DNA of 64,000 nucleotides from Escherichia coli (GTDB lineage: Bacteria > Pseudomonadota > Gammaproteobacteria > Enterobacterales > Enterobacteriaceae). Location of the stretch: the NCBI RefSeq assembly GCF_001677475.2, contig NZ_CP015229.1. One strand, 5' to 3'. Below the pieces are notes generated by a model. The model was not told where the DNA came from. It did no database searches and saw only the letters and a program-made list of their open reading frames with translations. This document shows, piece by piece, positions 34,082-34,795 of this stretch. Position 1 is the first letter of the stretch, and each line of letters begins with the position of its first letter. Made by a program: the position numbers and the translations under genes.

Positions 34082-34795
34082 ATGGCTGTTGTCTGTTCAG
34101 TTATCATGGTTTGCTCCCCAATTAATATTTTTCTTGAAAAGGATAAGTTGTCACTTAAGCCCGGCTCAGTCGTTCTGGCCACCAAATGCATCAGGGAGCT
34201 GTTCCTTATGCATTATGGCAAAGTTAAAATTGTCGATATAAACCATTCCATAGTAAGTCAATATCTGGAAAGTCAGCATAAGCTGACGAGGACTCGTCTG
34301 ACTGACATTCCGCTTTACCTGTTCCTGGAACCCAACAATCCTGCGTTGGCTGCGGCTTTAATTACCAGCCAGAGATTTTCCGGAGATACCACGGATATGT
34401 TTCTTATGATGGCCTGCCTGTCGCTGTTTGAATCAGATGAACGGATGTCATTATTTTTAAGTGGATGTTTATCCAGTATAAGTGCCAAAGTCAGAGCGAT
34501 AATTCAAACAGATATATCTGCAAACTGGATGCTCGGTGCGATTGCGTTACGCCTGCATATGAGTGAGAGTTTGTTAAAGATAAAACTGAAAAATGAAGGG
34601 CATATGTTCAGTCGCTTGTTGCTGGAAGAGCGGATGCGGGTTGCTGTAAATATGTTATGTTCCCGGGATGGGTATGGACAGACAGTGGCAGAAAAATGCG
34701 GTTATTCAAGTAGGTCCTATTTTATCTCTGTATTTCACCGCTATTATGGCTTCCCGCCAGACAGATATGTATCTATGCAAGGGCTTGATTTTTGA
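34082..34795 (+). CDS. AraC-family transcriptional regulator (prophage cargo)
   Basis: 237-aa ORF with C-terminal AraC-type HTH (SRSYFISVFHRYYGFPPDRY). Start may lie upstream. Confidence 0.7.
   Translation: MAVVCSVIMVCSPINIFLEKDKLSLKPGSVVLATKCIRELFLMHYGKVKIVDINHSIVSQYLESQHKLTRTRLTDIPLYLFLEPNNPALAAALITSQRFSGDTTDMFLMMACLSLFESDERMSLFLSGCLSSISAKVRAIIQTDISANWMLGAIALRLHMSESLLKIKLKNEGHMFSRLLLEERMRVAVNMLCSRDGYGQTVAEKCGYSSRSYFISVFHRYYGFPPDRYVSMQGLDF

What the first reader, a model, noticed from the sequence alone, without database searches (positions are those of the whole stretch)
34082..34795. Prophage-encoded AraC-family regulator next to Q
The ORF has a clear C-terminal AraC-type HTH but its N-terminal domain is unrecognisable to me. 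Prophage-borne AraC regulators in pathogenic E. coli are known to rewire host virulence and acid-resistance regulons, so this is a candidate lysogenic-conversion regulator; its targets cannot be inferred from sequence.
Basis: partly seen in the sequence, partly recalled or inferred. Interest (0 to 1): 0.5.

Follow-up and report, generated by a model that had tools for sequence, protein, structure and literature searches.

The report
Psr-type prophage AraC regulator gene
This is an intact copy of the already-studied Psr family of prophage-borne AraC-type regulators, which in E. coli O157:H7 switch on the acid-resistance regulator GadE and so damp type III secretion; it is ordinary for a lambdoid prophage of this group.

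Summary
The ORF at 34082..34795 (+) is real, intact and 237 aa long. It has a C-terminal AraC-type double HTH (Pfam HTH_18, E 9e-10). It is 92.4% identical in protein to each of the two psr-type genes of E. coli O157:H7 EDL933. Those two are 90.7% identical to each other, the figure published for PsrA versus PsrB. Full-length 714-nt copies occur in 724 of 5,426 complete E. coli genomes, usually two per genome, and in an Stx2k-converting phage.

The gene always sits in the same cassette downstream of an antiterminator Q gene and its terminator: small wHTH ORF, terminator, promoter-like site, psr, then tRNA-Ile2/Arg/Arg.

The N-terminal domain can be recognised. It aligns end to end with YdeO and shares the MxxVCSVI start of YdeO, GadW, AppY and PatE. 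An AlphaFold model (pLDDT 88) matches full-length Rns, CsvR and ToxT.

The DNA-binding half is under purifying selection (dN/dS about 0.12). Its two recognition helices carry no residue unique to this allele.

The likely targets (gadE, yhiF, hdeA) can be inferred by homology. Already known; low interest.

The parts
32836..33531 (+). Q-like late antiterminator gene (231 aa). This module varies between psr-carrying prophages.
   Evidence: phrog_304 'anti-termination protein Q-like', E 7e-103. PF06323 Phage_antiter_Q is recorded on identical contigs. Sequence conservation with the other psr loci stops upstream of about 33620.
33515..33543 (+). Promoter-like site (TTGCAA-17-TATATT) at the end of Q. 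Candidate late promoter pR' (inferred).
   Evidence: Consensus scan, 9 of 12 matches. The role is inferred from position only.
33595..33624 (.). Symmetric hairpin flanked by A- and T-runs. Candidate tR' terminator that closes the Q module (inferred).
   Evidence: Terminator scan: 11-pair stem. Each compared locus has its own, different hairpin plus T-run at this point, and the shared cassette begins just after it. There is a weak sub-threshold Rfam STnc370 hit on the minus strand.
33748..33945 (+). Small winged-helix ORF (65 aa; 106 aa if started at 33625). RefSeq calls it 'TrmB family transcriptional regulator'. It is co-conserved with psr.
   Evidence: phrog_331, E 2e-47. It is annotated upstream of psr in CFSAN004176, CP-933M (frameshifted there), OI-57 and phage phiSTEC1575-Stx2k. 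It is 98.6% aa identical to the Stx2k phage copy.
33932..33949 (+). Terminator-like hairpin plus T-run overlapping the stop codon of the small ORF.
   Evidence: The T-run is conserved and the loop varies among the four loci.
34019..34046 (+). Promoter-like site (ATGAGA-16-TATAAT) 36 nt upstream of the psr start codon. Candidate own promoter of psr.
   Evidence: Best match in the scan, 10 of 12. The TATAAT is invariant in all four aligned loci. Its function is inferred.
34082..34795 (+). psr-family AraC-like regulator gene (237 aa). The N-terminal regulatory domain is about residues 1-130 and the double-HTH DNA-binding domain about residues 133-232.
34822..34897 (+). tRNA with CAT anticodon, annotated tRNA-Ile (ileZ type) in the homologous loci.
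   Evidence: ARAGORN, Rfam tRNA at 68 bits, RefSeq annotation of homologues.
34905..34985 (+). Degenerate relic of the middle tRNA-Arg of the ileZ-argN-argO trio.
   Evidence: Not called by ARAGORN or by Rfam at E<=0.1. An intact tRNA-Arg occupies this slot in CFSAN004176, CP-933M and the Stx2k phage. It is also missing from the annotation of OI-57.
34999..35075 (+). tRNA-Arg (TCT).
   Evidence: ARAGORN; Rfam at 72 bits.
35089..35106 (+). GC-rich hairpin plus T-run closing the psr-tRNA unit.
   Evidence: Terminator scan: 7 pairs, 6 of them G-C.

Best explanation
The gene encodes a Psr-family (prophage-encoded secretion regulator) AraC/XylS-type transcription factor, an allele about equally distant from the two O157:H7 paralogues. 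Shown here: it is an intact two-domain protein. It has a ToxT/Rns/YdeO-type N-terminal regulatory domain and a C-terminal double helix-turn-helix. It lies in a low-GC moron cassette downstream of the prophage Q gene and its terminator. Inferred from position and consensus scans: in the lysogen it is transcribed from its own promoter (34019-34046) behind a terminator, and after induction it would also be read through by Q-modified RNA polymerase, as stx is in Stx phages. Inferred from 92% identity to PsrA/PsrB, with recognition helices unchanged: the protein binds AT-rich sites upstream of gadE, and also hdeA and yhiF/dctR, in the host acid-fitness island and activates them. GadE and YhiF then raise glutamate-dependent acid resistance and, in LEE-positive hosts, repress LEE operons and type III secretion.
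For: Identity is 92.4% to both EDL933 copies: WP_000301797 in OI-57 (the location published for PsrB) and WP_000261909 in CP-933M. Those two are 90.7% identical to each other, matching the published 90% for PsrA versus PsrB (PMC10877973, PMC8565820). All three fall in one 90%-identity cluster of 2,285 sequences. The cassette is the same in all loci examined: small wHTH ORF, psr, then tRNA-Ile/Arg/Arg. AraC HTH by Pfam. The GadX DNA-binding domain 3mkl superposes on the model at 1.5 Å (TM 0.89 on the target) and full-length Rns, CsvR and ToxT match at E 1e-10 to 1e-8. The model has pLDDT 88 and pTM 0.83. dN/dS is 0.12 in the DNA-binding half and 0.23-0.25 overall against the O157 copies. Within the predicted recognition helices (162-171 and 211-222), position 167 matches the CP-933M copy and position 211 matches the OI-57 copy, so no recognition-helix residue is unique to this allele. 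The gene has 41-43% GC against 50-55% in its flanks. Published function of PsrA/PsrB: induction of gadE and yhiF, binding of the gadE and hdeA promoters, repression of T3S, and acid survival (PMC10877973, PMC8565820, PMC4456613).
Against: No experiment exists for this allele. The primary papers (Tree 2011, Yang 2015, Bender 2012) were not readable here, so function rests on reviews. Seven residues are unique relative to both O157 copies (K22, N148, M150, D196, T201, M232, F237). The N-terminal domain evolves faster (dN/dS 0.5-0.6), so signal input or oligomerisation may differ. PsrA and PsrB themselves differ in deletion phenotype (PMC10877973). The host is an outlying Escherichia lineage, and its gad island and LEE status are outside the window. 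The prophage lacks the Pch/PerC partner gene seen next to the O157 copies. The review's placement of psrA in CP-933N could not be reproduced in the resequenced EDL933.
Confidence: 0.8

Rival explanations
1. The gene is a silent passenger in a decaying prophage. The ORF is intact, but it is not expressed or has no regulatory effect in this host.
For: Neighbouring genes are degraded. The esterase is truncated to 116 aa, there are antirepressor fragments, one phrog_1085 gene is frameshifted, and the middle tRNA is degenerate. There is no clear Shine-Dalgarno sequence before the ATG. In O157, deletion of psrB alone has little effect on secretion (PMC10877973).
Against: The ORF is full length and the DNA-binding half has dN/dS of 0.12. 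The -10 hexamer is invariant across loci. The gene stays intact, at 714 nt in every listed hit, across 1,321 places in 724 genomes, even where its neighbours decay.
Confidence: 0.1
2. Its main job is phage-directed. Together with the small wHTH protein upstream, it would regulate prophage genes (late operon, tRNAs, lysis timing or immunity) rather than host genes.
For: It always lies inside the late region between Q/tR' and the lysis genes and always travels with the small wHTH ORF. Some prophage transcription factors control both phage and host operons (title of PMC11879457, seen).
Against: Published work on the 92%-identical O157 proteins reports host targets (PMC10877973). Its nearest chromosomal relatives (YdeO, GadW, GadX, AppY) all control the acid-fitness island (PMC10057817). 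The low-GC unit of promoter, gene and terminator is the usual layout of a moron, not of a core phage regulator.
Confidence: 0.05
3. It has the same fold and family but a shifted regulon or signal. This allele would respond to a ligand in an Rns/ToxT-type pocket, or act on targets other than gadE in a host that lacks LEE.
For: The whole-protein model matches the fatty-acid-binding regulators Rns and ToxT. A profile of the family aligns to ToxT from profile position 25 onward. The N-terminal domain is the fast-evolving half.
Against: Neither recognition helix has a unique substitution. No ligand is known for Psr, YdeO or GadW. The Rns pocket residues H20 and R75 lie outside the part that could be aligned.
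Confidence: 0.05

Closest known systems
PsrA / PsrB of E. coli O157:H7 (prophage-encoded secretion regulators; Tree et al. 2011 and Yang et al. 2015, as summarised in PMC10877973)
   Same: Both are 237 aa, and the window protein is 92.4% identical to each EDL933 copy. The two-domain AraC architecture and the cassette and position downstream of Q in a lambdoid prophage are the same. The -10 element is conserved.
   Different: It is a third allele with seven residues found in neither O157 copy. It sits in a prophage at the potC site with a different Q module. No pch/perC regulator lies nearby. The host is not O157. Function is untested.
PatE (z0321, OI-8/CP-933H) of EDL933
   Same: It is a prophage-borne AraC-like activator of acid-resistance genes. 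It shares the MxxxCSVI N-terminus and the overall domain layout.
   Different: Identity is only 38%. PatE is 247 aa and lies at a different prophage position, at the distal end of a degraded thrW prophage rather than downstream of Q.
YdeO, GadW, GadX and AppY of E. coli K-12 (AraC/XylS regulators of the AR2 acid-fitness island)
   Same: They are homologous over the full length: the YdeO model aligns to residues 1-229 at E 7e-30, and GadW is 35% identical. All activate gadE and AR2 genes (PMC10057817).
   Different: Identity is 26-35%. Scores are far below the NCBIfam equivalog cut-offs (104 against 348 for YdeO, 85 against 500 for GadX). These proteins are chromosomal or DLP12-borne rather than in the Q-tRNA cassette.
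Rns/CsvR (ETEC) and ToxT (Vibrio cholerae), the solved full-length structures
   Same: The predicted fold matches across both domains, with Foldseek E 1.6e-10 for Rns and 2e-8 for ToxT. Profile homology to ToxT runs from profile position 25 onward.
   Different: Identity is 16-20%. The N-domain is about 30 residues shorter. Full-length TM is only about 0.5. Conservation of the fatty-acid pocket was not established.

Membership tests
Psr family (PsrA/PsrB) | High sequence identity to PsrA/PsrB, which are about 90% identical to each other | tested here: met
   92.4% to WP_000301797 (OI-57, the PsrB location) and 92.4% to WP_000261909 (CP-933M). Those two are 90.7% identical to each other. All fall in the same 90% cluster. 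Caveat: the Z1789 and Z2104 sequences themselves could not be fetched, so the assignment rests on location and on the 90% figure.
Psr family (PsrA/PsrB) | C-terminal AraC/XylS-type double HTH DNA-binding domain | tested here: met
   Pfam HTH_18 at 155-229, E 8.9e-10. The GadX DNA-binding domain 3mkl superposes on the model at 1.5 Å.
Psr family (PsrA/PsrB) | Encoded exclusively on prophages | tested here: met
   It lies between Q/RusA/DUF968 and the holin, endolysin, Rz and terminase genes of a lambdoid prophage integrated at potC. A homologue is present in the phage phiSTEC1575-Stx2k.
Psr family (PsrA/PsrB) | Association with a Pch/PerC regulator and T3SS effector loci on the same prophage | tested here: inconclusive
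   There is no PerC homologue anywhere in the window (tblastn), whereas both EDL933 copies have one downstream of the lysis genes. The distal, effector-bearing end of the prophage lies beyond base 64000, so effectors could not be checked.
Psr family (PsrA/PsrB) | Activates gadE and yhiF, binds the gadE and hdeA promoters, and represses T3S | not testable with these tools
   This needs EMSA, ChIP, RNA-seq or secretion assays. The target loci are outside the window.
YdeO (NCBIfam NF007407 equivalog) | Score at or above the curated cut-off of 348 bits | tested here: not met
   104.4 bits, and 29% identity to K-12 YdeO. It is a homologue, not an orthologue.
GadX (NCBIfam NF007432 equivalog) | Score at or above the curated cut-off of 500 bits | tested here: not met
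   84.6 bits, covering the C-terminal half only, and 26% identity.
PatE-type | Close identity to the OI-8 AraC protein | tested here: not met
   38% identity to WP_000246059, the only AraC-family gene in the stretch of the thrW prophage (OI-8) examined.
Rns/ToxT-type fatty-acid-responsive regulators | Conserved carboxylate-binding pocket residues (Rns H20 and R75; recalled from the PDB mutant names) | tested here: inconclusive
   The fold matches, but the profile alignment to Rns begins only at Rns residue 99, so the pocket positions could not be aligned.

The most novel reading that the evidence does not exclude
psr, like stx, may lie downstream of pR'/tR' inside the Q-dependent late transcript. 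If so, prophage induction by SOS would give a burst of Psr, and of the adjacent rare-codon tRNAs, that reprograms the host's acid-resistance and virulence network in the cell about to lyse. Alternatively or additionally, the ToxT/Rns-like N-domain may sense a gut fatty acid. Together with the nearby prophage iraM homologue (an RpoS stabiliser), the cassette would form a phage-borne stress-resistance module with two routes of control.
Probability: 0.12. Interest if true: 0.45.

Novelty: already known. Interest (0 to 1): 0.15.

Why it matters
It adds little that is new. Psr regulators are a documented case of prophage genes taking over a core stress regulon (GAD) to tune virulence. This window shows another intact allele in a non-O157 host, in a prophage at the potC site. 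The useful by-products concern annotation. RefSeq labels all copies 'helix-turn-helix domain-containing protein' and they could be named Psr family. The N-domain can be tied to the YdeO/GadW/ToxT class. The published O-island placement of psrA does not fit the resequenced EDL933 genome.

Tried and rejected
1. I tried to read the primary papers (Tree 2011, PMC7099609; Yang 2015, PMC4288888; Bender 2012, PMC3416394). None is held, so function is cited from reviews.
2. Text searches for z2104 and z1789 returned mostly irrelevant hits.
3. I looked for psrA where the review places it, in OI-50/CP-933N. Neither Sakai Sp6 nor resequenced EDL933 CP-933N has an AraC gene between Q and the TerB gene. 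The two EDL933 copies are in CP-933M and CP-933O. NC_002655, which carries Z locus tags, is not in the collection.
4. The names given by sequence sources were uninformative: 'helix-turn-helix domain-containing protein'.
5. A remnant or frameshift was rejected.
6. A YdeO, GadX or PatE orthologue was rejected on score and identity.
7. A PerC/Pch partner was searched for and not found in the window.
8. The middle tRNA was not recovered by Rfam at a permissive threshold.
10. Pfam on the IraM-like ORF gave nothing, although NCBIfam did.

Full report
**Observation**

The ORF is exactly as described: 34082..34795 on the + strand, ATG start, 237 codons, no internal stop (sequence). Pfam finds the AraC-type DNA-binding domain at residues 155-229 (HTH_18, E 8.9e-10), with HTH_AraC at 202-224.

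The gene lies in a lambdoid prophage whose integrase (17920..19038, minus strand) abuts potC/potD. Upstream of that lie mfd, lolCDE, nagK and cobB (compare). Upstream of the ORF are a DUF968/HNH-like gene, RusA and a Q-like antiterminator at 32836..33531 (phrog_304, E 7e-103). Downstream are two tRNAs, TerB/TciB-like genes, holin, endolysin, Rz and terminase. 'Next to Q' is nearly right: one small ORF lies between Q and the gene.

**Is it a remnant?**

No. A megablast of the 714-nt gene finds 1,321 places in 724 of 5,426 complete E. coli genomes. Every listed hit covers 1-714. The median is two copies per genome and the maximum four. RefSeq annotates the same start and stop in each locus examined. 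The nearest copy, in strain CFSAN004176, is 99.6% identical in DNA and differs by one amino acid. The exact protein is already in public databases and on draft contigs with the same DUF968-RusA-Q-small ORF neighbourhood.

**What it is**

The two copies in E. coli O157:H7 EDL933 (resequenced genome NZ_CP008957) are:
- WP_000301797, in CP-933O/OI-57 at 1905274-1905987
- WP_000261909, in CP-933M at 1266008-1266721

The window protein is 92.4% identical to each. Those two are 90.7% identical to each other.

Reviews describe PsrA (z1789) and PsrB (z2104, in OI-57) as prophage-encoded AraC/XylS regulators that share 90% identity. They are found only on prophages and are associated with Pch regulators and effector loci (PMC10877973, PMC8565820). 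WP_000301797 is the only AraC-type gene in the part of OI-57 I inspected, and a PerC/Pch gene lies downstream of its lysis genes. I therefore take it as PsrB. All three proteins fall in one 90%-identity cluster of 2,285 sequences. The window gene is thus a Psr-family allele, roughly equidistant from the two studied ones.

More distant relatives:

| Protein | Identity to window protein |
|---|---|
| PatE candidate (the AraC gene of the thrW prophage OI-8) | 38% |
| GadW | 35% |
| EnvY | 31% |
| YdeO | 29% |
| AppY | 29% |
| GadX | 26% |

The database search found the family almost only under E. coli or Shigella names. A thin tail of hits runs at 82, 79, 76, 67, 65, 58 and 57%, then at about 40%.

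**The N-terminal domain**

It is not unrecognisable.
- The NCBIfam YdeO model aligns residues 1-229 to model positions 1-230 (E 7e-30). The score of 104 bits is far below the equivalog cut-off of 348, so this is a homologue, not YdeO.
- PHROG 1450 covers residues 1-235.
- The first residues, MAVVCSVI, match MSLVCSVI (YdeO), MTHVCSVI (GadW), MDYVCSVV (AppY) and MATTCSVI (PatE candidate).
- An AlphaFold2 model built on an 18-sequence alignment has mean pLDDT 88.1 and pTM 0.83. It shows a beta-rich N-domain (strands 3-54, 79-82), helices to about residue 131, and the seven-helix AraC DNA-binding domain.
- Foldseek against the PDB matches full-length Rns (E 1.6e-10), CsvR (5e-10) and ToxT (2e-8), with TM about 0.5 over about 245 columns. 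It matches the GadX DNA-binding domain 3mkl at 1.5 Å (TM 0.89 on the target).
- A profile of the family reaches ToxT from profile position 25 (E 1e-19) and Rns from position 70.

The N-domain therefore belongs to the ToxT/Rns/GadX-type regulatory domain class. Whether a fatty-acid pocket is conserved could not be decided, because the Rns residues H20 and R75 lie outside the alignable part.

**Selection**

Against the two O157 copies, Nei-Gojobori dN/dS is 0.23-0.25 overall, 0.12 in codons 131-237 and 0.5-0.6 in codons 1-130. The DNA-binding half is clearly constrained and the N-domain less so.

The 29 variable positions among the four compared proteins are listed. In the predicted recognition helices (162-171 and 211-222), only positions 167 and 211 vary:
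- position 167 is I in the window and CP-933M copies and T in OI-57
- position 211 is R in the window and OI-57 copies and W in CP-933M

No recognition-helix residue is therefore unique to this allele. Seven residues differ from both O157 copies: K22, N148, M150, D196, T201, M232 and F237.

**Anatomy of the cassette**

Aligning the upstream regions of four loci shows that similarity begins just after a hairpin plus T-run (window 33595-33624). This hairpin has a different sequence in each locus and closes the locus-specific Q module. From there on the loci share the following elements:
- a small winged-helix ORF (33748..33945; phrog_331; 'TrmB family' in RefSeq)
- a terminator-like hairpin at its stop codon (33932-33949)
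- a promoter-like site (34019-34046, ATGAGA-16-TATAAT, 10 of 12, with the TATAAT invariant)
- psr itself
- tRNA-Ile2 (CAT), a middle tRNA-Arg that has decayed here, and tRNA-Arg (TCT)
- a strong terminator (35089-35106)

psr has 41-43% GC against 50-55% in its flanks.

In the Stx2k-converting phage phiSTEC1575 the same cassette (psr homologue 90.7% identical) lies directly upstream of stx2AB. The layout is that of a moron placed in the late operon downstream of pR'/tR'. From this I infer two modes of expression: constitutive or regulated transcription from its own promoter in the lysogen, and Q-dependent read-through on induction. Neither has been shown.

**Mechanism, by homology**

According to the reviews, PsrA and PsrB raise expression of GadE and YhiF, which in turn repress LEE operons and type III secretion. 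PsrB binds the gadE promoter and the hdeA promoter (-132 to -45) and increases survival at pH 2.5-3.5 and passage through the mouse stomach. PatE binds the same hdeA fragment. psrA contributes to persistence in sheep (PMC10877973, PMC8565820, PMC4456613). The chromosomal relatives YdeO, GadW and GadX and the DLP12-borne AppY all converge on gadE (PMC10057817).

With 92% identity and unchanged recognition helices, the most likely function here is the same: activation of the acid-fitness island through gadE. Any effect on T3S depends on whether the host carries LEE.

**Caveats**

- The primary papers were not available.
- The review's placement of psrA in OI-50/CP-933N does not fit the resequenced EDL933 or Sakai Sp6, which have no AraC gene there. 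The second EDL933 copy is in CP-933M. The window's prophage does occupy the potC site of CP-933N and does carry psr.
- The window prophage has no PerC/Pch gene and is partly decayed.
- The host's core genes are at best 97.6% identical to any of 5,426 complete E. coli genomes, so it is an outlying Escherichia lineage whose gad and LEE status is unknown.

**Verdict**

The feature is a member of an already characterised family and the exact protein is already in public databases. Interest is low. The most novel reading not excluded is a dual control (own promoter plus Q read-through, or ligand sensing by the ToxT-like N-domain) that couples phage induction or gut signals to the host acid-resistance network. 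I give this about 12%.

Noticed in passing
window 36097..36432 (-): A 111-aa ORF in a 31-34% GC island is an IraM anti-adapter (RpoS stabiliser) homologue. NCBIfam NF007393 scores 160 bits against a cut-off of 121. It is 75% identical to the 'IraM' gene that follows stx2 in phage phiSTEC1575-Stx2k. It lies 1.3 kb downstream of psr, so two stress-network modulators sit in one moron region.
   Followed up: partly
window 34905..34985 (+): The middle tRNA of the ileZ-argN-argO trio is degenerate. Neither ARAGORN nor Rfam (E<=0.1) calls it, whereas it is an intact tRNA-Arg in CFSAN004176, CP-933M and the Stx2k phage.
   Followed up: partly
window 33748..33945 (+): A small winged-helix ORF (65 aa, phrog_331, 'TrmB family') always travels with psr. 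It is frameshifted in the O157 CP-933M copy. Its function is unknown and it might be a partner or regulator of psr.
   Followed up: partly
window 4600..14500 (host core genes mfd, ycfT, lolCDE, nagK, cobB): The best identity to any of 5,426 complete E. coli genomes is 97.6%, and all genomes fall in the 95-99% band. The host looks like an outlying Escherichia lineage (perhaps a cryptic clade) rather than a standard phylogroup.
   Followed up: partly
window 36679..37029, 37347..37989 and 39248..39816: There are signs of prophage decay. The nanS-p-type esterase is truncated to its first ~116 aa, a phrog_1085 gene is split into two overlapping frames, and an antirepressor is broken into short ORFs. 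psr and the lysis genes remain intact.
   Followed up: partly
L003 (EDL933 CP-933N), L014 16008-16721 (CP-933M), L006 30274-30987 (CP-933O): Reviews place psrA (z1789) in OI-50/CP-933N, but the resequenced EDL933 has no AraC gene there. Its two psr-type genes are in CP-933M and CP-933O. Either the original assembly or the O-island assignment needs checking.
   Followed up: partly
window 33591..33650 (-): There is a sub-threshold Rfam match to the enterobacterial sRNA STnc370 (40.7 bits against a gathering score of 54, E 1e-3). It overlaps the symmetric hairpin just downstream of Q and is probably only the terminator structure.
   Followed up: no
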